Below are positions 7,313-56,266 of a DNA stretch of 64,000 bases, in pieces. Every line of letters begins with the position of its first letter. The first letter of the stretch is position 1. The notes below the pieces were generated by a model that saw nothing but the letters and a program-made list of their open reading frames with translations, was not told the origin of the DNA and searched no databases. A program made the translations under genes and the position numbers. The DNA is from Naegleria gruberi (taxonomy: Eukaryota), in NCBI GenBank assembly GCA_000004985.1, contig GG738882.1; one strand, written 5' to 3'.

Positions 7313-7384
7313 CTCCCGTGCCGGGAATTGAACCCGGATCTCCTGGGTGAGAGCCAGGTATCTTAGCCATTGGACCACACGGGA
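7313..7384 (-). tRNA. tRNA-Glu (anticodon CUC)
   Basis: Reverse complement: TCCCGTGTGGTCCAATGGCTAAGATACCTGGCTCTCACCCAGGAGATCCGGGTTCAATTCCCGGCACGGGAG. The acceptor stem TCCCGTG/CACGGGA and T8 are present. The anticodon stem is CCTGG/CCAGG with loop CTCTCAC, giving U33, anticodon CTC and A37. The T-arm is CCGGG-TTCAATT-CCCGG. It is very similar to canonical eukaryotic tRNA-Glu(CUC). Confidence 0.9.
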
Positions 7385-10600: not shown

Positions 10601-13600
10601 TGTAACTTCAAATTTGACTGTCTTGACAGTTTGCTCTTGAGAGAATGAGCTCTTTACTGTAACTTGAACCAAATAAGAACCAACACTAAGAGTTTCTGCT
10701 GTGAATGAAACACCAGAGCTAGTAACTGAAGCGAGGAGATTATCAACCTTTTCATCATCATCTGGGGTTGGAGCTTCAATGTTTGTCCAAGAGAAGAGAA
10801 GCTTTCTTCTATCCAAAGATACAGAACCAGATGCATCCAAATAGATACTACCACAAGCCTTTGAGATGGATGCCTTGTCAGTAGTCAATACAGCAGCAGG
10901 AGCAATACTTTGATATTCCTTCTTATTAACAAGAACATCTTCTGTTTCTTCACTATCAAGATAACTTCTGAACTTTAAGGTATCTCCAATATTAATTGTA
11001 GCCATAGAACCGAGGACAATTTGGAATACATTCTTTTCGTTAAAGATACAAACAGGATTGGATCCCAATGAATCAACATTGGCAATAACACTAGAACACT
11101 TGATTCTCTTCTTGATTGGTGTGAAAATTGTACCAACAATAGAGTCACCCTTTTCAGTGAAACCAAATGTTGTTTCATCAACCTTATAATCACACTTATC
11201 ACCGTACCAACCTGGTAAACAAGATTCACAGCTGGCACCAATTGAATTACCTTGACATGAGCATGTACCATCCTTATTACAAGTACCCTTTGAATTACAA
11301 TTAACTGAAGCAGAACAAGCAATTTGACAATTATCACCAACATAACCATCCTTACAAGTATTACAGAATTCTCCTACCCAATTGCTACCAGCACTACAGA
11401 CACACTTGAATTCAGAATTACAAGTACCATGACTATTACAAGTAAATTCATCAGAACATGTTCTTTCTAAACATCCTTCACCAGTGTATGCAGGAGTACA
11501 AATTGAACAATACTTTTGAGGGTCATAATTTCCACTACATGAACAAACACCGGATGAAATACATTTACCCTTAGAAGAACAAACAAATGAAGTGTTGGAA
11601 CGGTCAATACCATCACACTTAAAGTTTTGACAACTTGATCCATCATAACCATCATTACATTTACAAACTGGAACACCATTTTCAGCAACACAACTACCTC
11701 TACCACCACAAACACTCTTATCAGTTGCGGTAATACCATTACAAATTGCAATATCACATGTTGGACCAGTAAATCCATTCTTACATTTATCACAATAAGT
11801 ACCAGCAAAATTACCCAAACAAGAACAAGTATTTGGTGAAACACATTGACCACGGAATGAACAGCCACCTTCAGTTTCAGTCTTACCATTACAAGTTGGT
11901 GTAGAACAGTCATAACCTGAATAACCATTTTGACATTTACACAAGTTAGGAGAATCACAGGTACCCTTTGATGAACAAGCATCAGAAGCAGTACTTTCCT
12001 TTCCGTAACAGATTGGAGATTGACAATAACTTCCTGTATAACCTTGCTTACATGAACAAGTATCTTGATCAACACATGAACCCTTACCAGAACAAACTCC
12101 AGTTGCAGAGTATTCCTTTCCAAAACATGTAGTATTTGGTGGTAAATAACTGCCATAGTAACAATTTGAGGTTGGCAATGTGGAACAATCAGTTGTGAAC
12201 AAGTCAGGATGAGTAACTTCATTGTTGAGAATAATAGAGCAAACACCTGAACACCATTGCTTTTCTTCTGGAACACCCAAAGCTGAAGGATTACATGGAG
12301 TGAATGATTGATAGCACAAGAATTTCTTAATGGCTGCTTTACAATCGTCTCCACATTCAAGACCTCTACTCTCAACTTGTTTCAATACTTCAGAGTAGTT
12401 AGTACTGGTAGTTTGATCCAATTTCAACAAATTAGCAACAATCATGGTCTTGGCTTCAACGGCATTAGTGGCACCTACTGCAAAATTAGTATTCTTAATA
12501 CTGTACTTGACATGAGCCTTACAGAATGGAACGGATACAGATGGAGCAGAAATACAAGCTGGAGTGAGTGTGTAAATATTACATTCATCACCATAGTATT
12601 CTGGAGGACAAACACGCTTACATTTACCACTTGTCATTGAATAACCAGAAATACAAGATGAACATGGTTGACTAGTATTAGTAGTGAGATAGCCAGTGTT
12701 ACAGATACAAGTTGTAGTTGATGATGTAGTATCAACATATTGACATACACCTTGTCCACAACCATTCTTACAAACTGGATCAGTTCTTACACAGGTACCA
12801 AACTTGTTGACATAACCTGCTGATGTAGAACAAGAGCAACCAGTGGTTGCCTTGGAGAAACCTAACAATGAATTACAAACACAAACACCTGCCTTGGAAA
12901 GATAACCTTGAGTGGTATCACAATAGCATGATCCTTCATTGTCTGGCAAGTAACCCAAATCAGCATTACAGACACAAGCGTTTGAAACATTGACCAAACC
13001 AACTGGACAAGCAGTACATGGATTTGTACTGTCAACAGTGATAAACTTATTTCTACATTCACAATATCCAATAGTGGTATTAGTCTTGAAGAAACAATCA
13101 CCATTTGATCCACAATTCAAATCACACTTGACAAGAGGAGTAATACATTGACCATCCTTTAGAGTTAATCCTTCTTTACAGACACATCCTCCGGAAACTT
13201 CATCAGAAACAAATCCAAGTGAGCTATCACAGACACATTTTCCATCAGAGAGAACAAATCCAGATTTACACTTTTGACAATTTGAGCCAGCAAAGTTATT
13301 GAAACAATTACAGAGTTGGTTACCCTTAGCGTCCTTAGTACATTCACCATTAGCACCACAATTCAAAACGCATGGTTTAACTTCACAGAGTGAACCGCTA
13401 TAATTATCAGTACAATTACAATAGGCAGTTCCTGTTGTGTTGACACAAGTACCATGTTGACAATCGAGAGTACATGGAGCAATGGTACATTGAGTTCCCT
13501 TGAATCCTTGATAACAAGTGCAAGTATCAATTCCACTACAGCTTCCCATTCCTGAACAAACTGAAACATTATTCATTGAAATTCCGTAGCAGGTANNNNN

Positions 13601-16600
13601 NNNNNNNNNNNNNNNNNNNNNNNNNNNNNNNNNNNNNNNNNNNNNNNNNNNNNNNNNNNNNNNNNNNNNNNNNNNNNNNNNNNNNNNNNNNNNNNNNNNN
13701 NNNNNNNNNNNNNNNNNNNNNNNNNNNNNNNNNNNNNNNNNNNNNNNNNNNNNNNNNNNNNNNNNNNNNNNNNNNNNNNNNNNNNNNNNNNNNNNNNNNN
13801 NNNNNNNNNNNNNNNNNNNNNNNNNNNNNNNNNNNNNNNNNNNNNNNNNNNNNNNNNNNNNNNNNNNNNNNNNNNNNNNNNNNNNNNNNNNNNNNNNNNN
13901 NNNNNNNNNNNNNNNNNNNNNNNNNNNNNNNNNNNNNNNNNNNNNNNNNNNNNNNNNNNNNNNNNNNNNNNNNNNNNNNNNNNNNNNNNNNNNNNNNNNN
14001 NNNNNNNNNNNNNNNNNNNNNNNNNNNNNNNNNNNNNNNNNNNNNNNNNNNNNNNNNNNNNNNNNNNNNNNNNNNNNNNNNNNNNNNNNNNNNNNNNNNN
14101 NNNNNNNNNNNNNNNNNNNNNNNNNNNNNNNNNNNNNNNNNNNNNNNNNNNNNNNNNNNNNNNNNNNNNNNNNNNNNNNNNNNNNNNNNNNNNNNNNNNN
14201 NNNNNNNNNNNNNNNNNNNNNNNNNNNNNNNNNNNNNNNNNNNNNNNNNNNNNNNNNNNNNNNNNNNNNNNNNNNNNNNNNNNNNNNNNNNNNNNNNNNN
14301 NNNNNNNNNNNNNNNNNNNNNNNNNNNNNNNNNNNNNNNNNNNNNNNNNNNNNNNNNNNNNNNNNNNNNNNNNNNNNNNNNNNNNNNNNNNNNNNNNNNN
14401 NNNNNNNNNNNNNNNNNNNNNNNNNNNNNNNNNNNNNNNNNNNNNNNNNNNNNNNNNNNNNNNNNNNNNNNNNNNNNNNNNNNNNNNNNNNNNNNNNNNN
14501 NNNNNNNNNNNNNNNNNNNNNNNNNNNNNNNNNNNNNNNNNNNNNNNNNNNNNNNNNNNNNNNNNNNNNNNNNNNNNNNNNNNNNNNNNNNNNNNNNNNN
14601 NNNNNNNNNNNNNNNNNNNNNNNNNNNNNNNNNNNNNNNNNTTTGACAAGTACAATTATTTGGGGATGAGCAAAAACCTTTTCCTGAACAAACATTTCGA
14701 TCATTGTAGAGAGAAATTGAACAGTTGTGGAATTGACAATTCTCACCATAATATCCATCTTGACATGTACAATTATTTGGAAGTGCACATAAACCATGAC
14801 CACTACAAACCAATGAAGAAGTTGATGGAATAGAGGAACAGTTAAATAATTTACAAGTTTCTCCATAATAGTCCAATTGACATTCACACTTATTTGGTTG
14901 AGAACATTTACCATTACCAGAACAAGCTGATGAATCATCATAACGTACAGATGAACAATTATACAATTCACAATTATTTCCATAATAGCCTGCATTACAT
15001 TTACAAGTATCTAAATCAACACATGAACCATGGCTGGAACAAACATCTCTTGAATCAGCATAGGTGTTATCACAACTTGGAATTTCACAATTATTTCCCT
15101 TAAATCCACCGTTACACTCACAAACATCAATATCAGTACATTTACCATTACCACTACAAACCATAGTAGAATTTGATGGAACAGATTTACAATTATACAC
15201 TTCACATGACTTTCCATAATAACCACCCTCACAAGAACATTGATTTGGAGCAATACAAGGACCTCTTGATGAACATACAGAATTTTCATTCTTGTAAGTG
15301 CCATAACAATCAAATTGAGAACAATCCTTGCCATAGTATCCTTCTTTACATGAACATTGATCTGGAGCAATGCAGCTTCCCAAACCAGAACATACAAGTT
15401 TGTCATCTGAAACAATGCCGAAACACTTTGGTTTTTCACAAGCAGTACCAGAGTAGATTGCTTCAAAGGTAGAATTTCCAGATTGGAAGCAAACCTTTCC
15501 AGCATAATTGAACAATGCTAATACACCATCATTTTCAAGAACCAAAGTAAATGGATGACTAATTCCAGAGTCAGAACATGTTACAAATTTGTTAGGAGAG
15601 TATCTAACATCAGATCCATCTTTTGGTGATTCACCAATGAACAATAATTGACCAAGAGCTGAGACTTCAATACGAACATTATTAGCCTCAACATTCCATT
15701 CACTAACAACTTCTCCAGTTGAAACCTTCTTAATCTTGATGTAGGTTAATTCAACAAGGAGTACATATTGTCCATTATTAGAAACCAATGAAGAATTTCC
15801 ATTCACAGCCACAACATTCAAAGCACTTGAAATGAATGAATTGCTTGAATTGAAACCACCACAAGAACAAGTACTTGGTGAAACGCAGAAACCTTGTCCA
15901 GAGCAAACTTGGGCATCATTATTGAAAACGCCAGAACATGTAAAGACTGCACAGGATTCACCTTCAAAACCAGCTTTACAGGAACAATTGTTATGGGAAA
16001 GACACTTGCCATTTCCGCTACATGCAGAATTATCGAGTGAATTGACATTGAAACAGTCGAACTTTTCACATTGTTCACCATATTCATTGTTCAAACATTT
16101 ACAACTGTTCGGAGCTGTACAAACACCTTTACCTGAAGTACAAGCTTTGGAATCATCAAAGGAAAGACCGAAACATTCGTATTTTTCACATTTAACACCA
16201 TAATATCCTTCAGGGCAAGAACAATTATCTGGTGAAATACATGAACCAACTCTGGAGCATGGTGATTCACTGACAGAAATATTGTAACAATAGTAATTTT
16301 CACAACGATCTCCAGAATATCCTGGTTGACAAAGACACGAGTTAGGACTATCGCACACTCCATGGCCTGAACAAACAGTGCTATTGGAGCTTGAAAGAGC
16401 GTAACAATCATGGAATTGGCATTCAGGTCCATAATATCCGTCTAAACATTCACATTTTCCAGGTTGAGTACAGTTACCATTTCTAGAACAAGCATTGACA
16501 TCACCAGCAGCAAAGTTGTAACATTGTGGAATATTACAATTCGATCCACTATAATGCAAAGAGTCAGTTGAGTTGAATTCTACACTGGCAAAACAAACTG

Positions 16601-39162: not shown

Positions 39163-40272
39163 ATGAAGATAGGCTACGTTGGTATGAATAGGGCACTCAA
39201 ATTAACAACCTCCAATACAACCCGATTGAATAATGTTTCTCCAAAGAAGATTAAAGAAAAATTGCTAGTTAATATTGATCACTTGAAAAAGATGCTCAAG
39301 TGGAATGTTCAGAAGAATTTGCTCTTCTTTAGAATTGGAAGTGAATTTGTGCCATTTGCTAGTCATGAAAAGGTTCGGGATGAAGAATTCAAGCAAGAAT
39401 TTAATTGGATTGAGGAATGCGAAGATGATCTAAAGGAGATTGGAAAGTTTGTAAAGGAAAATAATATTAGAATTAGCATGCACCCTGATCAATTTGTATT
39501 GATTAATTCACCTGATATGGAAATATTCAATAGATCCTATGAAGAATTGAACTATCACGCTCAATTGATGAATACTATGGGATTAGATACCACTCATAAA
39601 TTCCAAATACATTTGGGTGGAAAGTATGATGACAAGAGAAAGTCAATGCAAAGATTTGTTGATCGATACAAGAATAATTTGAATGATGCTATCAGGGCTC
39701 GATGTGTATTGGAAAATGATGATAGAATTTATAGTTTGGAAGATGTGTATTGGATACATCAACAATGTGGCATTCCAATTCTCTTTGATACATTGCATCA
39801 TGAATGTTTGAATTCAAATGGTGACTCTTTAGAAGTGGCATTCAAGAAAGCTGCTAGTACTTGGGATCCGGTTAAGGATGGTGTTCCTCTTATTGACTAT
39901 TCAGATCAAGAACCAGGTGCACGTATTGGAAATCATAGAAAGAGCATTGAATTGAAGCATTTCAAGAAGGTAATTTGTGACAAGTTAATGAAATGCAAGA
40001 ACGATGATGGAGAATTTATTGAATTTGATGTCATGTTGGAAATCAAGGATAAGGACGCTAGTGCCATTAAGATCTTACCAGTCTTTTTAAAAGGTGTTGA
40101 GGATAGAGAAAAGGATCCAGAACCAACTGAGGATGACAATCAAGAAGATTTAAAAGTCCAAGTATTAGAGGAAGATGAGGACGAAGCAGTATCGAGTGAG
40201 GAAGAAAAACCAAAGAAGAGAAAGAAGGCACCAACCAAGAAGGCATCCACTACCAAGAGAAAGAAAAAATAA
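39163..40272 (+). CDS. uvdE: UV damage endonuclease (UvdE/Uve1 family) with a Lys-rich, NLS-like C-terminal tail
   Basis: 'MKIGYVGMNRAL...NLLFFRIGSEFVPFASH...IRISMHPDQFVLINSP...LNYHAQLM...FQIHLGGKYDDK...RCVLENDDRIYSLEDV...CGIPILFDTLHH' matches conserved UvdE blocks. These are GyvsiN, fRisSdlfPfash, iRlSmHPdqF, LeyHa, vviHlGG and LvLENDDk. The tail is '...KPKKRKKAPTKKASTTKRKKK'. Confidence 0.85.
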   Translation: MKIGYVGMNRALKLTTSNTTRLNNVSPKKIKEKLLVNIDHLKKMLKWNVQKNLLFFRIGSEFVPFASHEKVRDEEFKQEFNWIEECEDDLKEIGKFVKENNIRISMHPDQFVLINSPDMEIFNRSYEELNYHAQLMNTMGLDTTHKFQIHLGGKYDDKRKSMQRFVDRYKNNLNDAIRARCVLENDDRIYSLEDVYWIHQQCGIPILFDTLHHECLNSNGDSLEVAFKKAASTWDPVKDGVPLIDYSDQEPGARIGNHRKSIELKHFKKVICDKLMKCKNDDGEFIEFDVMLEIKDKDASAIKILPVFLKGVEDREKDPEPTEDDNQEDLKVQVLEEDEDEAVSSEEEKPKKRKKAPTKKASTTKRKKK

Positions 40273-45510: not shown

Positions 45511-45808
45511 TTTTTTTCCAGTAAAATAAAGAAATTCGAACAATTCCCAAGTTCCATTTAATTTATTGTAAATTCAACACGTGTTTTTAATACAACACAA
45601 AGTTCAACCATTTATGACATTCAATCTTCATTCCAAAATTCATTAAGATTGCACGCCTACACTTTTGGAAAAACAATCCTTTTTGGAAAATGTGCTCATG
45701 TTAAATTTCTTTCATTAAGAGTTATGTATCTTGAATTTCGAGAGTATGTAAGAATAAGAAGAAGAGTATTATTAAACCAACTATTCAAAAAAACAACACA
45801 ACAACAAC

Positions 45809-46375
45809 ATGATGATAATAACTTCGGAAGCAGCACTTGATAAAATCAAATCTTCATCATCATCACAACATATTGCACAAAAGCAAGTGAGGTTTCACCC
45901 AAGTACATCATCGGACCCTCTTCATAAAGAAGAAGAAATCATAATACAAGATGAAATTGAACTGTTTGAACAATCTGCTGCCGTAACAACAACAGTTACA
46001 AGACTGAATGAAGAAGTGCCACCATTAAGTACTGTTTGCAAATCTTCATCAGTAGTATTTCATCTTCCCTCATTAGAATCATTGGCACAAGATATCAAAA
46101 ACTCACCTCCTTCTGAAGTAACTCAATTAGTGTTACCATCACCACTAGTTGGCAATGTTAAGTATCCTGTGATTACAATTCCACTTTTGGTGGGAATTAT
46201 TTGTTTACCTGTAGTTGGAACTGTTATAGGTTTGATTGCTTTTTTGAAATTTAAAAAGACATTTGAAAGTGTCAGAATTTGGATAATTGTGAGCATTGTG
46301 ATCAATTTGATGATTTGTTTGCTTACTGCCATAATCATTATACAAGTAATTATCATATTAAATCTCAGTAAATAA
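45809..46375 (+). CDS. Hypothetical protein with two C-terminal TM helices
   Basis: ORF 188 aa with hydrophobic segments 'VITIPLLVGIICLPVVGTVIGLIAFL' and 'IWIIVSIVINLMICLLTAIIIIQVIIIL'. Confidence 0.35.
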   Translation: MMIITSEAALDKIKSSSSSQHIAQKQVRFHPSTSSDPLHKEEEIIIQDEIELFEQSAAVTTTVTRLNEEVPPLSTVCKSSSVVFHLPSLESLAQDIKNSPPSEVTQLVLPSPLVGNVKYPVITIPLLVGIICLPVVGTVIGLIAFLKFKKTFESVRIWIIVSIVINLMICLLTAIIIIQVIIILNLSK

Positions 46376-46406
46376 GTTCTCAAATGTTGTTCGTTTCATG
46401 GTTGAA

Positions 46407-46412
46407 TAAAAA
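46407..46412 (-). terminator. Pol III T-run terminator immediately 3' of the 5S gene
   Basis: Plus-strand 'aaaaa' at 46408-46412 gives TTTTT on the minus strand directly after ...GTAGTC. Confidence 0.6.
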
Positions 46413-46530
46413 GACTACAGCACCACAGGTTCCCAAGTTGTCTCCAACCTCAGTACTGATGTGGCTCGACGATGCTTAACTTCTCAAATCGGACGGGATG
46501 AGGTGCATTCATCGTGATATGGCCGTAGCC
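46411..46530 (-). rRNA. 5S ribosomal RNA gene (solitary)
   Basis: Reverse complement: GGCTACGGCCATATCACGATGAATGCACCTCATCCCGTCCGATTTGAGAAGTTAAGCATCGTCGAGCCACATCAGTACTGAGGTTGGAGACAACTTGGGAACCTGTGGTGCTGTAGTCTT, 120 nt. It carries canonical 5S blocks (GGCCATA, CATCCCGTCCGAT, AGTACT, GGTTGGAGACAAC, GGGAAC, GGTGCTGTAG). As I recall the Dictyostelium 5S rRNA, it also has 'GGTTGGAGACAAC'. Confidence 0.9.
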
Positions 46531-46669
46531 ATTCAATATCTTAAAATGTGAATAATAAATCATAGCCATTCATTTCCTTAAATTAAGGTTTATCAACCAA
46601 CCCTTTTTGGTAAAGATCGATAAGAAAAGTACAAATTGGAGAGATGTTTATTAGAAATTACTTTTGAAA

Positions 46670-47165
46670 TTATTCAGCTTTCTTTTTAGATAAATCCAAC
46701 CATCCTAATCCAAACTGATTCAATAAATCATCAATAACTTTCTCTCTACTGGACATGAATGGTTCAATGTAACAATTATAAACAAAGTGAGCTCCACCTA
46801 AATGATGATTAATATTTAAATAATTCGAATAATATTATTACAAAATTTTCGAATAAATTTACTTACCAAAGTTTGTATTAACTTTAAAGATCAACCACAA
46901 CAAGAAGAGAATTTTAACTTCAAAATAGAAAGGAATCCAATAAATTAACCATTCGAAAAAGCATTCGAAAGTGATCACAAAAGCATAAACTGACCAATAA
47001 GTCAACTAATTCCGATCATTAAATAATTAAATAATTTAATTTACTTACCCATTGCTTATCATCTTCTTCTTCCTTTGTTTTCAAAGCTTGGAATGATCTA
47101 AAAGCAGGATACAATGCTCCGAGAAGATTAGAAATTGATCGAGAGATTAAAAATCCAAACAACAT
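46670..47165 (-). CDS. HVA22/REEP/Yop1 (TB2/DP1) family protein; 3 exons, missed by the ORF track
   Basis: Exons are 47165..47049, 47005..46867 and 46797..46670. Introns are 47006-47048 (GTAAGT...aatTAG) and 46798-46866 (GTAAGT...catttAG), and the frames join. The protein reads 'MLFGFLISRSISNLLGALYPAFRSFQALKTKEEEDDKQW|LTYWSVYAFVITFECFFEWLIYWIPFYFEVKILFLLWLIFKVNTNF|GGAHFVYNCYIEPFMSSREKVIDDLLNQFGLGWLDLSKKKAE'. It aligns block by block with REEP5 (...[65 protein letters not shown]...) and with the plant HVA22 N-terminus. Confidence 0.75.
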
Positions 47166-47203
47166 TTTTTTTAATTTATTGATGTGTTTGAAAGGTGAAA
47201 GGT

Positions 47204-49206
47204 TTAGAATAAATCACTGTATGCTGATGGAGTTGTTACAACTTGTGCTGCAGCTTGATAATTTTCATAAGAACCTGCGTCAAAAGAATTGTTTGGGAAT
47301 TGATCATAGGTTGGTGGTGGTTGTTGTTTCATATTCTTTGTGACACCTTCTAGATAGCTTAACAGAGCTGATAGGACAGCATCATTTTGAGAGACTGGAG
47401 AGCTATTGGCTGATGCATTACTATTTCTATCGGTTACTATCATTTCTTTTTGAGGAAGTGGGAAGTTGTTTTGTGGCATTAGATTTCTTTGAATTACTGC
47501 TTCCATTTCGTCAATTAGTGGTTTATATGCAGTAGATAGCCGCACATATCGTTTGGCAAGTGTTGTAATTGCTCGGTAATCCTTCTCCAAGAATGTAAAA
47601 TAATCCACAGTAATAACCTTTTTAGATGATGTGGTAATTGAGGAAATCCTAGGTCTTAATCCTCTCTCAATTAATTTACAAATGTCCAAATGATATTGAC
47701 AAGTTGTGGTAATACTAGCTAGTATTGTAGAGAGAGAATATCTGTAATTTCACAAGTCATTAAGAACTTGGTATTGAAAAATACTTACGGAAATAGTTCA
47801 TGTTCAGTCATTAACGTAATTTTGAGTGCAATCTCTTCCACAGCACTTGGAGAAATATCAGGTATTCTACTCAAGAATAATAATTTGAATCCCTCCACAA
47901 TAATGAATGAATGCATATGTTGAGATTTGAAAAATGTCTCCGAGTGACAATCAACCATCATTTTGATTAAACGTTGACGATAGCTAGAAACTGCATTGAA
48001 CACTGCTTCAATAACTTGTTTGAAAAGCATGAAATTTTCAGTTGTGACAACAGCGTTTTTCAAATAGTCCCATGTACCAGGCAACAATATCTCAGAAATT
48101 GACTTGTCCAGAGAAACTTCCAAAATCTTTGGTAACCCCTTGATGAAAATGGCAAACTCATTTGGGGAATGTTGCTCAGCTCCACCCACAACAAAAGCTC
48201 TATGTTTCTCTAAATTCTTCTCATATAAATCCAAAGTTCTGTTTTGATTCTCCGAAAAGTAGAAATCTCCAAATAATAAATAGTATCTAGACCTTGGTAA
48301 ATCTCCATATCCAATAAAGTATGCTCCCATATTGTGACAAGCTCCAACAAAGTAAAAGTTTGAAAAGTAATCTGTCGAGAGTTTGGCAATTTCCAATTCA
48401 CATCTCTTGGCTGTGACTTGAGCAAAGCTCAACTGAGCAGTAATTTGTTCAGATAAAGCCAATGCTGACAAGTAAAAGGCAAATAAACACTTCATCTCAG
48501 CCTCTGTTGTGATAAATTCATTGGGAGGAACAATAATTTGTGGTGAACCATTCAAAAATTGTTGTAAACATGTCTTTACAAAAAATTCAAATTTGACCCT
48601 TTTCAAAACGGGATGTCCACTACAAAGGAAAGTATAATACAATTCTACCACATTCATTGGTGAAACTGTACTTGACATTGTTTGTGGAAATTGTGGTGAC
48701 TGACCGTTTATGTGAGTTGGTGAAGTGTACGGAAGAGATGATGATGGGATGGTGGTTGGTAAATTTAGAGGCATGCTATTGAGTAATTGATGTTGTAGTT
48801 GATTGTCAATTGAGGGAGTACTATTTGATTTGTCAGTATTATTGGACGATGATGACTTTTTCCTTCTCTCCGTTTTGGTTGGATAAGCGTCCGAGCCTTT
48901 TCCTCGTTTTCTTGGTGTATTGTACTATTTGTATGAGATTGAAGAAATGATGATTATGATGAATACTTACTGTACATTTGAGTCCTCTGGCTGAACATTT
49001 AGAGCATTCAGGAAGCTTTTTATCACACTTATATAAAACGTGTAATCAATGATATGTTGTAACTACTACTAGACACCTACCTTTTTGTGTAGAGATCGAC
49101 ATTGAATGCAGGCTATTGGGTGAAAGCCTTCCGGAGCAGTTAATCCATCTCCAATATTATAATCTTCATCCTCTGATAATGAAGCTTGACTTTCGGTTTT
49201 CTTCAT
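47204..49206 (-). CDS. Zn(II)2Cys6 (Gal4-type) binuclear-cluster transcription factor; 4 exons
   Basis: Exons are 49206..49081, 49027..48971, 48924..47789 and 47741..47204. Introns are 49028-49080 (GTAGGT...tataAG), 48925-48970 (GTAAGT...aaaTAG) and 47742-47788 (GTAAGT...ttaCAG), and the frames join. The zinc cluster spans exons 1-2: 'ACIQCRSLHKK|CDKKLPECSKCSARGLKCT|YNTPRKRGKG'. This merges ORFs 47785..48774 and 47204..47689 and adds two short 5' exons. Confidence 0.65.
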
Positions 49207-50530: not shown

Positions 50531-52441
50531 TTAATAAAAATATGCTTGCTTCTTTGAATTATAAGTTTCTTCATCTAGACAGACCAGTGAACAGTCTCTA
50601 CATTTAGTAAAGCATGCAACAATATCCTCTGGATTAGTGACAAGTACAGGAATTGAATCACTAAGAGGAACTCCCTTTTTGAATGCTTCTGGTGCGTACT
50701 TGACTAAAAGCTCTTTGTTTAATCTGTAAAAGAAATAGGTTGAGACAGGAGTTGGGTTAACAAGGAACCATTGCAAAACTTCTTCTTGCTGTTTCACATC
50801 AAATAAGGAGACAATTTCCATTGCTCTACTGTGTCCAATATTTTGTGAATTATGAGCAATTCCTTCTTTTAAGAATGTCCTACACCACTTTTTCCTTACT
50901 TCCATATCACAATAATTACTTAAGATTTGTGATCCCAATACAAATGCATAAATGTCTGGTTGTTTTCTTGCTAGTTCCAAAATCTTTTCCATATTTTCCT
51001 CATAGTTTTGATAGGTAAAAGGTGGTAATCCCCATGCCTGTAACACCTTTGATTGTATTGAATTATTCTCATCCCTAAATTGTAAAAATAAAGATGGTTT
51101 GGTATCGGCTATCATTTTTACTATTCTTGGATCTTCAGTCACCTTGGTTGAAAAGTTAACTATTGATTGAGGATTGATTGCAAAAAGTTTCTTTGCAAGA
51201 GGTCTGCAATCTTTCCAGAAGGCCGGCAAATAAGTGATGAGGCTTGGATTTTTCATCAATATCATTTCAACAATTTCCTTGTCTTGTAATAGTTCTTCTT
51301 GATTCAAAAATGCAGGGAAAGATGTCATATCTTCAATTTGATTGATTCCTTTGATTACCAATTTGCGGAAACCAGGGGTAGAGTAGGGAATATATTCCAA
51401 AGAGTAAGGTTTGGAAGAAACAGCAATTTCTAATAATTCTTGATGATTTCTCAGAAAATTAGAACTGAGATATTTGATAGCAAATCCATTTTGTTTTACA
51501 GCTTGAGTGACAACCTGCTTATCTTGCAAAAACTTGGTGCAATATTTTAACATTTTACCATGTGAGTTGACCAATCGAAGGCAAAAATCTCTATCTTCCA
51601 AGAAGGATTGAGGTATTTCCTTACCAATCTTGTAGTAAATTTTTGCAGCCTTTACAAGAAAATCTGGATCATTGAATTTTGGAGAGATTGCACTAATGGT
51701 CTTGGCAATTTGTTGAGGAGAAAGATCACGAGCTGTAAAATGTTTCAATAAACAAAGAGCTAATGGAGTGGATGTCACACCTGCAGGTAGTCGATTAAAT
51801 ATTTGTCTTCCACAAGCAATTTTACAATACTTTTGGAAACTATCTGCCTCAATTGTAAACATTGATGAAGGTGGATCGAATAGAGCATCCCATATATTAG
51901 TTTTTGTATTGTAATGGCCACTTGTACTAATAACAAGGTTATTATATTTCCCATTCGGAACTAGGACAATGTTATCACTAATACTAACAAGGTTATTCGT
52001 CTTTTCCCATAACTTGATTGGATATATCCAGTGTGCAGGATACGAATAATATGAATAGCTGGCAACATTCATATCTTCATCGAAATGTCTCGTCATCATC
52101 AGTAACTCTTTAATAATAAATGGAATTTTACAATTTAATTCAGTTTCAACTCTTTCAAATTCCTGTTGATATCGTTCTCTATATTCATCATCACAATCAA
52201 TTAATTGAAATTTATCAATCAAATGTTCATTATAAATAGTCAAATACTCCCGAAACACTCTACGAAAATAATTTAAAAAGGTGGCAACAAGTTGTCGATT
52301 CGTCACTCTAAAATTGCTCGATTCTCTGAATGGAATAAAACTGAATAATAATTCTAAAATTTCCGATGGTAAATCAAGTAATTTATAAAGATGATTGGAG
52401 GTGGTGGAAATTGTTGTGATCATAGTTTGATCGTGTTGCAT
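50531..52441 (-). CDS. F-box-like protein with DUF4116-type repeats
   Basis: The N-terminal F-box motif is 'LLDLPSEILELLFSFIPF'. The C-terminal half contains 'DKQVVTQAVKQNGFAIKYLSSNFLRNHQELLEIAV'-type DUF4116 repeats. Confidence 0.55.
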   Translation of the reverse strand: MQHDQTMITTISTTSNHLYKLLDLPSEILELLFSFIPFRESSNFRVTNRQLVATFLNYFRRVFREYLTIYNEHLIDKFQLIDCDDEYRERYQQEFERVETELNCKIPFIIKELLMMTRHFDEDMNVASYSYYSYPAHWIYPIKLWEKTNNLVSISDNIVLVPNGKYNNLVISTSGHYNTKTNIWDALFDPPSSMFTIEADSFQKYCKIACGRQIFNRLPAGVTSTPLALCLLKHFTARDLSPQQIAKTISAISPKFNDPDFLVKAAKIYYKIGKEIPQSFLEDRDFCLRLVNSHGKMLKYCTKFLQDKQVVTQAVKQNGFAIKYLSSNFLRNHQELLEIAVSSKPYSLEYIPYSTPGFRKLVIKGINQIEDMTSFPAFLNQEELLQDKEIVEMILMKNPSLITYLPAFWKDCRPLAKKLFAINPQSIVNFSTKVTEDPRIVKMIADTKPSLFLQFRDENNSIQSKVLQAWGLPPFTYQNYEENMEKILELARKQPDIYAFVLGSQILSNYCDMEVRKKWCRTFLKEGIAHNSQNIGHSRAMEIVSLFDVKQQEEVLQWFLVNPTPVSTYFFYRLNKELLVKYAPEAFKKGVPLSDSIPVLVTNPEDIVACFTKCRDCSLVCLDEETYNSKKQAYFY

Positions 52442-52585: not shown

Positions 52586-54295
52586 TTAGAGTTTTGTCTT
52601 TTTGTACATGGACTTGAGTGCCTTTTGTCTAAGATCTTCCATTTCTTCAACGGATCGTTTGTTTTCTCCTCTATCAACTTTGATTCGGTCAGTTTCGTAA
52701 ATGGAGGCAAGATTTTTCTTTACTTCATCCTTTCTAAAGTTCTTTTCATAGGTTGCTAGATTGTGGACCTTAGCTCCTAAGGCAGTGGTACAATTTCTTG
52801 AAACCAAATTAGAAAGTTCAGCAATTTGTTTCAACAATTCACTTTCGTTTTCAATTTTTTTGTACTTTTTCAAATATTGTTCAAGAATGAAAACTTCAGA
52901 TCTGCAATCATAACAATGATCCATTCCTTCAACTTGCACGTTGTGTGGATAATAGTGAACTCTTGTTCTGGTATTGAAATAAAACATTTGACTTTCGTAT
53001 TTTGCAGTATCGTATGGAATAGTTCCACAATCTTTTGAACATACTAATCTTGTTTCGGTTGTTGTTTGAGGTCCCCATACTGGCAAGTAAATATCTCCCT
53101 TCAAATATTCATAGCTCTTCTCAGATTGTGTATCATAAGGTAGACGAAACTTGAGCATGGACATTTTTGGTTTAATTGTCAAATGCCAATTCATTTGTGC
53201 TTGATTATCCCACTTGACACACTTTTCAATCTCCTCACGGTGCTCTACTGTTTGATTTTCATTTCCCTTCTCTGGTTGAGCTGTTCTAATATCACTAATA
53301 AACAACACATTTTTATCAGCATACTTTGCAGCCAACTCATCAGTAAAGAAATCATTCACAATTGTAATCTTATCTGTTGGTTTACAAACAAATGGACTTG
53401 GATCTACAAGTACGAAACTCAAATCAGGAAATAAATCACTCAAAAAGTTTGTGTGGTGGCCAGGAGCAGCACCTGCATAAACAACAATTGCACCAGGATA
53501 ACCAAATTCAGTTAAGAATTCAATTTCTGACATGAGTAATTTACGTTGACCCCAGTGAATGACACTCTTCAACTCTGACTTTCTTCTACGGTAAGTTTCT
53601 TGAGGATCGTGTGGTTGGAGTATACGATTGGTTCTATCGAATGGTTTCTCTTCAATGTGTGGATCATTGTAGTGCAATATTTGTTCACAATGTGGATTTG
53701 ATTTCTTATCTGGCCATTCGTAATTTTCATATTGTTTCTTTCGGTAGGAGAGAACGAATTGATTGGGAGCTCTGTTGAATTGATGGTAGAATCGAACTCT
53801 TCCTTGCGGTTGTTGATAGGAAGATGTATAGGAATGTGGAGGAGAATATCTATCCTCATCCCTTTTTCTGAATCCTGCTTGTCTGATATAAGAAGAAGAA
53901 GAAGCAGAAGCATGATAATATTCTTGTCTACCATATGAAGGCCGTTCTTCTCTTTCTTGATAATGAACATGAGAAGAATGGAAAGGCCTTATGTTGCCAG
54001 CATTTCGTGCCTTAATTGGTTTTCTATCCTGATAAGGGGACGCAGAGGAACCAACACTGAAGCGTTCTTCTTCCTCATGATATTGGTGTTGGTAATTTCG
54101 TTGTTTATTATCTGAACGATAAGAAGAATTATCAACAACAAAATTATCCCTTCTGGAAGAAATGTATTGCCTATTGCTGGAGCTGCTAAAAGTTGAACGA
54201 GTTCCATCTGGTTGTTGAGGAGTATCACATTGTCGAGAACGTTGGAGGTTGTTGTTGTGATTATTGTTGGTTTGAGGGTGGCCACGATTGTTCAT
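52586..54295 (-). CDS. Poxvirus VP39-like mRNA cap (nucleoside-2'-O)-methyltransferase homologue with an RS/RY-rich N-terminal region
   Basis: The catalytic domain aligns with vaccinia VP39. 'HWGQRKLLMSEIEFLTEF..GAIVVYAGAAPGHHTNFLSDLF' matches 'YQGQLKLLLGELFFLSKLQ...[22 protein letters not shown]'. 'VLFISDIRT' matches 'IILISDVRS'. 'FRLPYDTQ...YLPVWGPQTTTETRLV' matches '[34 protein letters not shown]'. Residues ~1-230 are low-complexity R/S/Y/Q-rich, e.g. '...RSDNKQRNYQHQYHEEEER...YRRRKS'. Confidence 0.7.
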   Translation of the reverse strand: MNNRGHPQTNNNHNNNLQRSRQCDTPQQPDGTRSTFSSSSNRQYISSRRDNFVVDNSSYRSDNKQRNYQHQYHEEEERFSVGSSASPYQDRKPIKARNAGNIRPFHSSHVHYQEREERPSYGRQEYYHASASSSSYIRQAGFRKRDEDRYSPPHSYTSSYQQPQGRVRFYHQFNRAPNQFVLSYRKKQYENYEWPDKKSNPHCEQILHYNDPHIEEKPFDRTNRILQPHDPQETYRRRKSELKSVIHWGQRKLLMSEIEFLTEFGYPGAIVVYAGAAPGHHTNFLSDLFPDLSFVLVDPSPFVCKPTDKITIVNDFFTDELAAKYADKNVLFISDIRTAQPEKGNENQTVEHREEIEKCVKWDNQAQMNWHLTIKPKMSMLKFRLPYDTQSEKSYEYLKGDIYLPVWGPQTTTETRLVCSKDCGTIPYDTAKYESQMFYFNTRTRVHYYPHNVQVEGMDHCYDCRSEVFILEQYLKKYKKIENESELLKQIAELSNLVSRNCTTALGAKVHNLATYEKNFRKDEVKKNLASIYETDRIKVDRGENKRSVEEMEDLRQKALKSMYKKTKL

Positions 54296-54529: not shown

Positions 54530-56266
54530 CTACTTGGAAGATAATCCGTAATTCATGTTGAATAGTTCTTGTATTTCAGTCGAATCCAAGAAGGGTTCCA
54601 AATCTGTTTCCACTTCCGAGCCAGCTGAGAAACTATCCAAAAAGCTGTTTAAACTTTCTTCATATTCCTTCATTCGGTGTTGAACTAGATTTTCATCCTC
54701 CCTTTCTGTTGTTGGAGTCAGGTCATTAAGATTGGAGATGTATTGGAAAAACTCATTGGCAGATTCAATTTTTGATAAATCCACAGTTGGGGGAGAAAAG
54801 CTCTGATTGGTAATGCATTCATTGAGGGCGTTATAGAATTGTTTCCTCTCAATTATTGTTTCAATTTCCTTAATCATATTGTGGTGGAAGAGTTGAACAC
54901 CCTTGTATCGTTTAGAGAGAATTTGAAGAGCTCTCAAATCTTTTGAAAGCACCTGATAGTAATCAATGGCACCTAGAGGAGAAGAAACGTCACAATTCTT
55001 GCGATCTCCCTTTTCAATGAGTTTAACAATTTGCAAATGGATTTTACAAGCAGCAGCAATTGGAGCAATCAAAAAGGAAGGAGAAAATGATAATTGGCCT
55101 GATTCAGTTGTGGTGGTTATTTTCAAAGCGCATTCTTCAATTTTATCCTTTCCTCTATTCATTTCAGTATAAATTCTAATCTTGAGTCCATTTCCAACAA
55201 TTTCTGCAATATCATTAAGAGTTCCAGAAACCCTCTGATTCTTCATCATCATTCCTTTACAAATACTAATTACAGCATCCAACATTTGAATGAAAATCAC
55301 ATAGGTACTCTCTGTTAATTTCTGGTCCAAAATCATACTCCACTCCTTTGGGAACTTGACGCCAATATGTTTTTCAGCAATTTCATGCCAATCTTTTAGC
55401 ATTCCCATAGCCGTATTCTCACTCTTGGCTTCACAGGTAAGAACTTGCTTGAATTTTTTCAAATTTATCTGATACTTTGTTGCTTTTAAATCGTCAATTG
55501 GGTTTTCATCTAAATAAAATTCAACAAATTTAAGGTAAAATCTAGCAGTTTTCAATTTTCCACATCCAATTTCATAACATGCCAAGTATGCATAGGCACT
55601 TGCTACATAAAAATTAGAGTGTTCATCGAAAATCTTGCTGAGAGCATCTCTGGCTTTACGTGCTGATTCATCTGCTGTTGGTGATGCAAGAGTTTCCTGC
55701 TCAATTTGTGCCTTAATAGCCATAAACATGGCCTTGACCTCTTTACAATTCGGTAATGAATCATCCTTACTCAATAAATAAGTTTCCAATTCCTTCGGAT
55801 TAATAACCCAAATCTCAGACATCATTTCTTCATAAATATCCAAATATTTCCTCATCTCTGCAAACTCATTAATTGTCTGATAAAGATTTCCTCCAACTCC
55901 AACTCCAGCACTAATATTACTTCCATTACCACCAATAGAAGAATTTGTAATAATACTTCCTGAATTAATTGTCAAATTATTAATCGAAATTAAATTATTA
56001 CAAGTTTCATTGAACGATGAATTTTCCATCTGGAATGTAATCTTTCCATCATTATTTGATTTCTTCTTCTTCCGAATCCTAGAGGCTCCCTTCTTTGCCT
56101 CTTCATAAACACATTCAACCTTCCTCCATTTACATCCACTACATGATGGCAATGCCCGATCGCAACATTTATGAAGACGTTTACAATTATTGCATGCTAT
56201 TGGATGGAATTGTGGTTTTTCTTCATCTATTGTGCCTGGTGATGGTGAGGATAATGGTTGTTGCAT
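54530..56266 (-). CDS. Zn(II)2Cys6 binuclear-cluster transcription factor (second copy of the class in the window)
   Basis: The N-terminus carries 'ACNNCKRLHKCCDRALPSCSGCKWRKVECVY' followed by a basic stretch 'RIRKKKK'. It is a single continuous ORF. Confidence 0.7.
   Translation of the reverse strand: MQQPLSSPSPGTIDEEKPQFHPIACNNCKRLHKCCDRALPSCSGCKWRKVECVYEEAKKGASRIRKKKKSNNDGKITFQMENSSFNETCNNLISINNLTINSGSIITNSSIGGNGSNISAGVGVGGNLYQTINEFAEMRKYLDIYEEMMSEIWVINPKELETYLLSKDDSLPNCKEVKAMFMAIKAQIEQETLASPTADESARKARDALSKIFDEHSNFYVASAYAYLACYEIGCGKLKTARFYLKFVEFYLDENPIDDLKATKYQINLKKFKQVLTCEAKSENTAMGMLKDWHEIAEKHIGVKFPKEWSMILDQKLTESTYVIFIQMLDAVISICKGMMMKNQRVSGTLNDIAEIVGNGLKIRIYTEMNRGKDKIEECALKITTTTESGQLSFSPSFLIAPIAAACKIHLQIVKLIEKGDRKNCDVSSPLGAIDYYQVLSKDLRALQILSKRYKGVQLFHHNMIKEIETIIERKQFYNALNECITNQSFSPPTVDLSKIESANEFFQYISNLNDLTPTTEREDENLVQHRMKEYEESLNSFLDSFSAGSEVETDLEPFLDSTEIQELFNMNYGLSSK

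What the first reader, a model, noticed from the sequence alone, without database searches (positions are those of the whole stretch)
46411..46530. Solitary 5S rRNA gene embedded between protein-coding genes, ~140 bp downstream of the HVA22 gene
A full-length, canonical 5S rRNA with an immediate T5 terminator sits alone in a Pol II gene-dense region. As I recall, in Dictyostelium discoideum the 5S gene is carried on the extrachromosomal rDNA palindrome. A dispersed chromosomal copy would mean a different 5S organisation in this species (or an orphon or pseudogene copy). The sequence also serves as a taxonomic anchor, since it is dictyostelid-like.
Basis: partly seen in the sequence, partly recalled or inferred. 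Interest (0 to 1): 0.6.

Follow-up and report, generated by a model that had tools for sequence, protein, structure and literature searches.

The report
One of Naegleria's many scattered 5S genes
This is a real, intact 5S ribosomal RNA gene, but the DNA comes from the amoeboflagellate Naegleria gruberi, not a slime mould, and that genome was already shown in 2012 to carry about 280 such genes scattered among protein-coding genes, so the finding is ordinary.

Summary
A full-length 5S rRNA gene lies at 46412-46530 on the minus strand (Rfam RF00001, 105.4 bits against a threshold of 38). It ends in a run of five T. It sits 139 nt downstream of a three-exon HVA22/TB2/DP1 gene and is the only 5S gene in the 64-kb window.

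The taxonomic reading is wrong. Four window proteins are 100% identical to Naegleria gruberi proteins on one 381,539-bp scaffold. In Naegleria the 18S/5.8S/28S genes lie on a roughly 14-kb multicopy circular plasmid for which no 5S gene is reported. Feng et al. 2012 (PMC3369914) already listed 279 putative 5S genes on 117 scaffolds of this assembly. From their coordinates, the median gap between neighbouring copies is 33.8 kb, and 198 of 279 have no other copy within 10 kb. A lone 5S gene between protein genes is therefore the normal arrangement here, not an orphon or a misassembly.

The copy looks functional:
- all helices are intact;
- it has an exact A box, a near-consensus C box and an A/T run at -30 to -21;
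- it is 118/119 identical to an environmental copy with unrelated flanks.

Verdict: already known, low interest.

The parts
46412..46530 (-). 5S rRNA gene, 119 nt, GC 51% in a window that averages about 33% GC
   Evidence: RF00001 at 105.4 bits, model 1-120/120. The MFE fold gives the three-arm 5S shape, -41.5 kcal/mol, z = -2.6. Across 10 related copies, 97.7% of cells are paired and 18 pairs show compensatory changes.
46408..46412 (-). Run of five T at the 3' end of the gene, read as the Pol III terminator; the first T is the last aligned 5S base
   Evidence: Read directly from the sequence. A TTT or TTTT run directly follows the 3' end in 10 of the 12 related full-length metagenome copies; in the other two a longer T run lies a few bases further on.
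46467..46481 (-). A box of the internal control region, positions +50 to +64 (AGTTAAGCATCGTCG)
   Evidence: Exact match to the A-box consensus N(G/C)(C/T)(C/T)AANCNNNNNNN used by Feng et al. 2012.
46434..46451 (-). C-box-like element, positions +80 to +97 (GAGGTTGGAGACAACTTG)
   Evidence: Best match in the gene to the C-box consensus NNG(G/A)TGGGNG(T/A)CCN(C/T)NNG, with 2 mismatches out of 18.
46551..46560 (-). Upstream A/T run ATTTATTATT at -30 to -21, a TATA-like element
   Evidence: Longest A/T run in the 60 nt upstream. An A/T run of 5 nt or more starts between -30 and -21 in 10 of 11 related copies. The A/T fraction across 12 copies peaks at 0.80 in the -30 to -26 bin, against 0.55-0.75 elsewhere. 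Feng et al. report a TATA box for N. gruberi 5S genes.
46670..47165 (-). Neighbouring Pol II gene of the HVA22/TB2/DP1 family, three exons, stop codon 139 nt upstream of the 5S start (context, not part of the 5S unit)
   Evidence: Spliced product matches PF03134 at 93.8 bits. Exon coordinates and GT..AG introns come. An AATAAA lies at 46652-46647, 18 nt past the stop.
45809..46375 (+). Neighbouring 188-aa ORF with a hydrophobic C-terminus, convergent with the 5S gene and ending 36 nt from its 3' end (context)
   Evidence: ORF list; no Pfam match. A plus-strand AATAAA at 46405-46410 overlaps the complement of the 5S T-run.

Best explanation
This is one ordinary member of the dispersed, multicopy nuclear 5S rRNA gene family of Naegleria gruberi. 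In this genus the 18S/5.8S/28S unit is carried on a multicopy circular plasmid, while the 5S genes are scattered through the chromosomes, mostly as single units between protein-coding genes. The gene is most likely transcribed on its own by RNA polymerase III. The probable promoter is a type-1 internal control region (A box at +50 to +64, C-box-like element at +80 to +97), helped by a TATA-like A/T run at -30 to -21. Termination would occur at the T5 run at the 3' end, and the 119-nt RNA would enter the large ribosomal subunit. Shown here: the 5S identity, the intact structure, the motifs, the species, the solitary position, and the absence of large rRNA genes in the window. Inferred: that this particular copy is transcribed, and which factors act on it.
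For: 5S identity and integrity: RF00001 at 105.4 bits, full length, no non-standard pairs flagged, and the MFE fold reproduces the three-arm structure. On an alignment with 9 related environmental copies, 97.7% of cells pair, 18 of 39 pairs have compensatory changes, 0 of 500 shuffles reach these values, and slid controls pair only 33-41%. Species: four window proteins are 100% identical to N. gruberi proteins on one 381,539-bp scaffold, and GC is about 33%, within the 33-37% quoted for Naegleria genomes. Genome organisation: Feng et al. 2012 list 279 putative 5S genes in this assembly, not located with the rDNA units. Parsing their Table S1 gives 264 entries of at least 110 nt on 117 scaffolds, a median gap of 33.8 kb between neighbours on a scaffold, only 2 gaps under 1 kb, and 198 of 279 copies with no listed copy within 10 kb. 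Descriptions of the Naegleria rDNA plasmid name only 18S, 5.8S and 28S. Promoter and terminator: exact A box, C box with 2 mismatches, A/T run at -30 to -21, T5 at the 3' end. Independent copies: 14 metagenome contigs each carry a single 5S gene. L009 is 118/119 identical to the window copy but has unrelated flanks, and ten further contigs share one 75-78% identical 5S type with flanks that all differ. This is the pattern expected for dispersed genes whose promoter lies inside the gene.
Against: Expression of this copy was not tested, and no RNA data could be examined. Feng et al. found no TFIIIA homologue in N. gruberi by BLAST, so the usual factor that reads the internal control region is unconfirmed. 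The C box departs from the consensus at 2 positions. I could not place the window on the JGI scaffold numbering, so I cannot say which Table S1 entry it is. I could not scan the full assembly or the plasmid sequence myself; the genome-wide picture rests on the published table. Feng et al. label the N. gruberi genes 'tandem arrangement: Y' in their Table 1, which conflicts with the spacing I computed from their own coordinates.
Confidence: 0.9

Rival explanations
1. It is a silent copy, a young pseudogene or 'orphon'. It is intact in sequence but not transcribed, for instance because the flanking convergent Pol II genes or the local chromatin exclude Pol III.
For: The gene is squeezed into a 294-bp spacer (46376-46669) between two convergent Pol II genes, and likely poly(A) signals lie on both sides. 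With about 280 copies in the genome, not all need be active. No expression data were available.
Against: The copy has no truncation and no broken helix, and its Rfam score is among the highest of all copies examined. It is 118/119 identical to an independent environmental copy. The A box, TATA-like run and T5 terminator are all present.
Confidence: 0.07
2. It is an assembly artefact: a read from a 5S array, or from the rDNA plasmid, wrongly joined into a chromosomal scaffold.
For: The gene's GC content (51%) differs sharply from its flanks (about 33%). Multicopy sequences are prone to misassembly.
Against: The 119-nt gene is far shorter than a Sanger read and is embedded in unique sequence. 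An intact HVA22 gene ends 139 nt away on one side and an ORF ends 36 nt away on the other. The same solitary layout recurs at about 200 loci in the published table and on 14 independent metagenome contigs. Plasmid descriptions list no 5S gene. Higher GC in the gene than in its flanks is expected for any structured RNA in an AT-rich genome.
Confidence: 0.01
3. It is a retroposed 5S copy or a 5S-derived SINE inserted at this site.
For: Dispersal of hundreds of copies needs some mechanism. A 10-nt string, TGAATGGCTA, occurs at -43 to -34 and again at -5 to +5.
Against: There is no A-rich tail, no extra SINE body after the 5S sequence, and no direct repeats bracketing the gene. The repeats found lie on one side only or are of chance length. 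The gene ends directly in its own terminator. L009 lacks the upstream 10-mer.
Confidence: 0.02

Closest known systems
Dispersed nuclear 5S rRNA genes of Naegleria gruberi (Feng et al. 2012, PLoS One 7:e36878, Table S1)
   Same: Same species and same assembly. The gene body has the same length class: their hits are mostly 117 nt, and this copy is 119 nt by Rfam's ends. It is not linked to the rDNA unit, and it has the internal control region, TATA-like element and T-run they describe.
   Different: Nothing substantive differs. I could not identify which of the 279 entries this copy is. Their Table 1 calls the arrangement 'tandem', whereas their coordinates show scattered, at most loosely clustered, copies.
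[quoted passage not shown]
   Same: In both organisms the large rRNA genes are extrachromosomal and multicopy. The 5S gene is transcribed by Pol III in D. discoideum, and that is inferred here.
   Different: In D. discoideum the 5S gene rides on the palindrome with the other rRNA genes, about 200 copies per cell (PMC5391098). Here it is chromosomal and separate from the plasmid. The organism is a heterolobosean, not a dictyostelid.
Dispersed 5S genes in other eukaryotes (Schizosaccharomyces pombe, Neurospora crassa and Acanthamoeba from my own recollection, not checked here; Giardia non-tandem per Feng et al. 2012)
   Same: Single 5S units with their own promoter and terminator, scattered among Pol II genes, with gene bodies kept alike while the flanks differ.
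   Different: Copy number and lineage differ. In Naegleria the partner rRNA genes are on a circular plasmid present in thousands of copies, so the 5S and 18S/28S gene doses are set in completely different ways.

Membership tests
5S rRNA (Rfam RF00001) | Covariance-model score at or above the curated gathering score, over the full model | tested here: met
   105.4 bits against a gathering score of 38, model positions 1-120 of 120, E = 4.4e-22.
5S rRNA (Rfam RF00001) | Three-way junction with five helices formed by standard pairs and supported by covariation | tested here: met
   No non-standard pairs are flagged in the cmscan alignment. The MFE fold gives the same architecture. On 10 related copies, 97.7% of cells are paired and 18 pairs show double changes, against 33-41% paired in the slid controls.
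5S rRNA (Rfam RF00001) | The RNA is made and incorporated into the large ribosomal subunit | not testable with these tools
   No RNA-seq or ribosome data were accessible.
Eukaryotic Pol III type-1 (5S) gene | Internal control region: A box, intermediate element, C box | tested here: inconclusive
   The A box matches exactly at +50 to +64. The C box is the best match at +80 to +97 but has 2 of 18 mismatches. The intermediate-element pattern is too degenerate to be informative, with 11 matches in the gene. No TFIIIA was found in N. gruberi by Feng et al..
Eukaryotic Pol III type-1 (5S) gene | Run of four or more T directly after the mature 3' end | tested here: met
   TTTTT at 46412-46408 on the minus strand. 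A TTT or TTTT run directly follows the gene in 10 of 12 related full-length copies.
Dispersed N. gruberi 5S gene family (Feng et al. 2012) | The sequence comes from the N. gruberi nuclear genome | tested here: met
   Four window ORFs are 100% identical to N. gruberi proteins EFC41991 and EFC42061-63, all on one 381,539-bp scaffold.
Dispersed N. gruberi 5S gene family (Feng et al. 2012) | Not adjacent to 18S/5.8S/28S genes and not part of a head-to-tail 5S array | tested here: met
   The only Rfam hits in the 64 kb are one 5S gene and one tRNA gene. There is no second 5S copy.
Dispersed N. gruberi 5S gene family (Feng et al. 2012) | This locus is one of the 279 entries in Table S1 | not tested
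   The window's JGI scaffold number and offset could not be recovered. 122 of the 279 entries are compatible with a window holding a single copy.
[quoted passage not shown] | Dictyostelid origin and linkage to the 17S/5.8S/26S genes | tested here: not met
   The organism is Naegleria, and the window holds no large rRNA genes.
5S pseudogene or orphon | Truncation, helix-breaking substitutions, or loss of promoter or terminator | tested here: not met
   The copy is full length and fully paired, with its terminator and A box present. It is 118/119 identical to an independent copy.
5S-derived SINE or retroposed copy | A-rich or non-5S tail and flanking target-site duplication | tested here: not met
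   No tail is present and no direct repeat brackets the gene.

The most novel reading that the evidence does not exclude
Naegleria 5S genes might be transcribed without a TFIIIA-type factor, since none was found by BLAST in 2012, relying instead on the upstream TATA-like run together with the internal boxes. Solitary copies wedged between convergent Pol II genes, like this one, might also act as punctuation for those genes. Here the complement of the 5S T-run forms the only AATAAA after the stop codon of the plus-strand gene, and the HVA22 gene's AATAAA lies just before the 5S promoter. The evidence does not exclude either idea and does not positively support either.
Probability: 0.06. Interest if true: 0.35.

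Novelty: already known. Interest (0 to 1): 0.08.

Why it matters
It matters little in itself. The locus is a correct but routine annotation: one of about 280 5S genes already catalogued in Naegleria gruberi. Two small clarifications come out of the check.
[quoted passage not shown] The 5S genes are chromosomal.
- The 2012 survey's label 'tandem arrangement' does not fit its own coordinates, which show scattered copies with a median spacing of 33.8 kb.

For the genome scan, the useful lesson is that the 5S sequence alone misled the taxonomic call, and protein identity settled it.

Tried and rejected
- Synteny: I fetched the UvdE loci of N. lovaniensis (L002), N. fowleri (L003) and Willaertia magna (L004). 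Gene order downstream of UvdE is not conserved with the window, and none of the 53.7 kb holds a 5S gene. This says nothing about the age of this locus.
- Placing the window on a JGI scaffold, to match it to a Table S1 entry: exact-protein look-ups returned only a 1.3-kb Logan contig (L001) or nothing, so this failed.
- Primary sources: Clark & Cross 1987 and the 2010 genome paper, wanted for a direct statement on 5S genes, are not held in the library. Two N. fowleri genome papers do not mention 5S.
- Degenerate or partial 5S copies next to the gene: a permissive Rfam scan of 45800-47300 found only chance-level snoRNA-like hits, all with E above 2.
- Short repeats near the gene: a 37-nt 70% tandem repeat upstream and a 12/13 match at 46373-46385 to an internal 5S segment are of a length expected by chance in AT-rich DNA and are absent from L009.
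- Dictyostelid origin is rejected by 100% protein identity to N. gruberi.
- I ran no further search on HVA22 orthologues, because the verdict would not change.

Full report
Yes. An Rfam scan of all 64 kb gives exactly one 5S_rRNA (RF00001) match, at 46412-46530 on the minus strand. It scores 105.4 bits against a gathering score of 38 (E = 4.4e-22), covers model positions 1-120 of 120, and has no non-standard pairs flagged.

On the minus strand the RNA reads GGCUACGGCCAUA...GCUGUAGUC and runs into TTTTT (46412-46408), followed by ATTCAA. The 'immediate T5 terminator' is therefore correct.

The sequence folds on its own into the three-arm 5S shape (-41.5 kcal/mol, z = -2.6). Three searches found no second copy or fragment in the window:
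- the gathering-score scan;
- a 36-mer search allowing 3 mismatches, with 1 match against 0 expected;
- a permissive scan of 45800-47300.

The only other Rfam hit in the window is a tRNA-Glu(CUC) gene at 7313-7384. There is no 18S, 5.8S or 28S gene.

**2. The surroundings**
Upstream on the same strand is a three-exon gene (47165-47049, 47005-46867, 46797-46670, with GT..AG introns). Its 127-aa product matches PF03134 TB2/DP1/HVA22 at 93.8 bits.

On the other side, a plus-strand 188-aa ORF with no Pfam match ends at 46375, 36 nt from the 5S 3' end. The 119-nt gene thus occupies a 294-bp spacer between two convergent Pol II genes.

A minus-strand AATAAA lies 18 nt after the HVA22 stop (46652-46647). 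A plus-strand AATAAA (46405-46410) overlaps the complement of the 5S T-run. Whether these act as poly(A) signals in this organism is an inference.

**3. Whose genome is this?**
It is not a dictyostelid. The UvdE ORF at 39163-40272 is 100% identical over its full length to a Naegleria gruberi protein on a 381,539-bp scaffold. The next-best hits are N. lovaniensis (61%), N. fowleri (60%) and Willaertia magna (62%).

An exact-sequence look-up shows that three more window ORFs (50531-52441, 52586-54295, 54530-56266) are N. gruberi proteins EFC42061, EFC42062 and EFC42063 on the same scaffold. The window's GC content of about 33% fits the 33-37% quoted for Naegleria genomes (PMC12482156).

It simply concerns a different organism.

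**4. What is known about 5S genes in Naegleria?**
The 18S, 5.8S and 28S genes of Naegleria lie on a circular plasmid of 13-16 kb present in thousands of copies. Descriptions of that plasmid list only these three rRNAs (PMC12482156; PMC5805870; abstracts).

Feng et al. 2012 (PMC3369914) searched this same JGI assembly. They reported 279 putative 5S genes, 'not located with rDNA units', with an internal control region, a TATA box and T-run terminators. They found no TFIIIA homologue.

I parsed their Table S1:

| Measure | Value |
|---|---|
| Entries listed | 279 |
| Entries of at least 110 nt | 264 |
| Scaffolds carrying a copy | 117 |
| Neighbouring pairs on the same scaffold | 162 |
| Median gap between neighbours | 33.8 kb |
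| Gaps under 1 kb | 2 |
| Gaps under 10 kb | 43 |
| Copies with no listed copy within 10 kb | 198 of 279 |

Their Table 1 labels the arrangement 'tandem', but the coordinates describe scattered and at most loosely clustered genes. A solitary 5S gene between protein-coding genes is therefore the normal state in this genome, and it was already on record.

**5. Independent copies**
A scan of metagenome contigs with a 26-mer from the loop C region returned 14 contigs. Each carries exactly one 5S gene at or above the Rfam gathering score.
- L009 is 118/119 identical to the window copy, yet its flanks are unrelated. A 361-aa ORF starts 165 nt upstream of its 5S gene in divergent orientation.
- Ten further contigs share a 75-78% identical 5S type, and their flanks all differ.

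On an alignment of ten distinct copies, the window's own fold is kept in 97.7% of cells. Eighteen of 39 pairs show compensatory double changes, concentrated in helices I, II and IV. None of 500 shuffles reaches these values, and slid controls pair only 33-41%.

Conserved gene bodies with unrelated flanks are what is expected of dispersed genes whose promoter is internal.

**6. How it most likely works**
The gene carries four candidate signals:
- an exact match to the A-box consensus at +50 to +64;
- the best C-box match at +80 to +97, with 2 of 18 mismatches;
- a 10-nt A/T run, ATTTATTATT, at -30 to -21, the position where most related copies also have an A/T run and where A/T content peaks at 0.80;
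- the T5 run at the 3' end.

The most likely mechanism is independent transcription by RNA polymerase III from a type-1 promoter helped by a TATA-like element, with termination in the T-run. This step is inferred, because no expression data could be examined and the factor that reads the internal control region in Naegleria is unidentified.

**7. Rivals**

| Rival | Assessment | Confidence |
|---|---|---|
| Silent or pseudogene copy | Cannot be excluded without expression data. No defect supports it: full length, top-range Rfam score, intact signals, near-identity to an independent copy. | about 0.07 |
| Misassembly | Very unlikely. The gene is shorter than a read, is embedded in unique sequence with intact genes 36 and 139 nt away, and the same layout recurs at about 200 listed loci and on 14 independent contigs. 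| about 0.01 |
| Retroposed copy or SINE | Lacks the defining tail and bracketing duplications. | about 0.02 |

**8. Things that led nowhere**
- The UvdE loci of three related species share no synteny downstream of UvdE and carry no 5S gene.
- The window could not be placed on the JGI scaffold numbering, so the matching Table S1 entry is unknown. 122 entries are compatible.
- Clark & Cross 1987 and the 2010 genome paper are not held in the library.

**9. Verdict**
The finding is already known and of low interest.

Two minor corrections to the literature follow:
- The phrase 'no rRNA genes in the nuclear DNA' of Naegleria ignores the 5S genes.
- The 'tandem' label in the 2012 survey is not borne out by its own table.

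Noticed in passing
window 7619-28040 (-): Two overlapping giant ORFs of 2458 and 4823 aa carry dozens of EGF/teneurin-type EGF repeats plus a REJ domain. They are probably one surface protein of more than 7000 aa, of the polycystin-REJ type, interrupted by an intron or frameshift near 13569-14995. GC content dips to 24% at 14-16 kb.
   Followed up: partly
window 52586-54295 (-): A 569-aa protein (EFC42062) has a poxvirus VP39-like 'PARP_regulatory' domain (PF01358, 79 bits). UniRef names it cap-specific mRNA 2'-O-methyltransferase.
   Followed up: partly
window 39163-40272 (+): This is a UV-damage endonuclease (UvdE). Outside Heterolobosea, nearly all of its best hits are bacterial or archaeal proteins at about 45-50% identity, which suggests an old horizontal acquisition.
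   Followed up: no
window 54530-56266 (-) and 50531-52441 (-): One protein has a fungal-type Zn2Cys6 binuclear cluster domain. A 636-aa neighbour has four DUF4116 repeats and a weak F-box match.
   Followed up: no
window 46526-46599: A 37-nt unit covering the first 5 nt of the 5S gene and its upstream 32 nt is repeated once in tandem at 70% identity. As a result, TGAATGGCTA occurs at -43 to -34 and again at -5 to +5. The near-identical copy L009 lacks it. It is of chance length for AT-rich DNA.
   Followed up: partly
window 46405-46412: The complement of the 5S T5 terminator forms AATAAAAA on the plus strand, 30 nt after the stop codon of the convergent 188-aa ORF. It could serve as that gene's poly(A) signal. 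This is speculative.
   Followed up: no
L005-L008, L010-L014, L016, L017 (metagenome contigs VFQM/VFQO): An unidentified AT-rich organism in these metagenomes carries many solitary 5S genes of one type, 75-78% identical to the Naegleria gene, each with different flanks. This points to the same dispersed organisation in another lineage.
   Followed up: partly
Feng et al. 2012, Table 1 versus Table S1: The paper scores N. gruberi 5S genes as 'tandem arrangement: Y'. Its own coordinates give a median spacing of 33.8 kb and only 2 of 162 gaps under 1 kb.
   Followed up: yes
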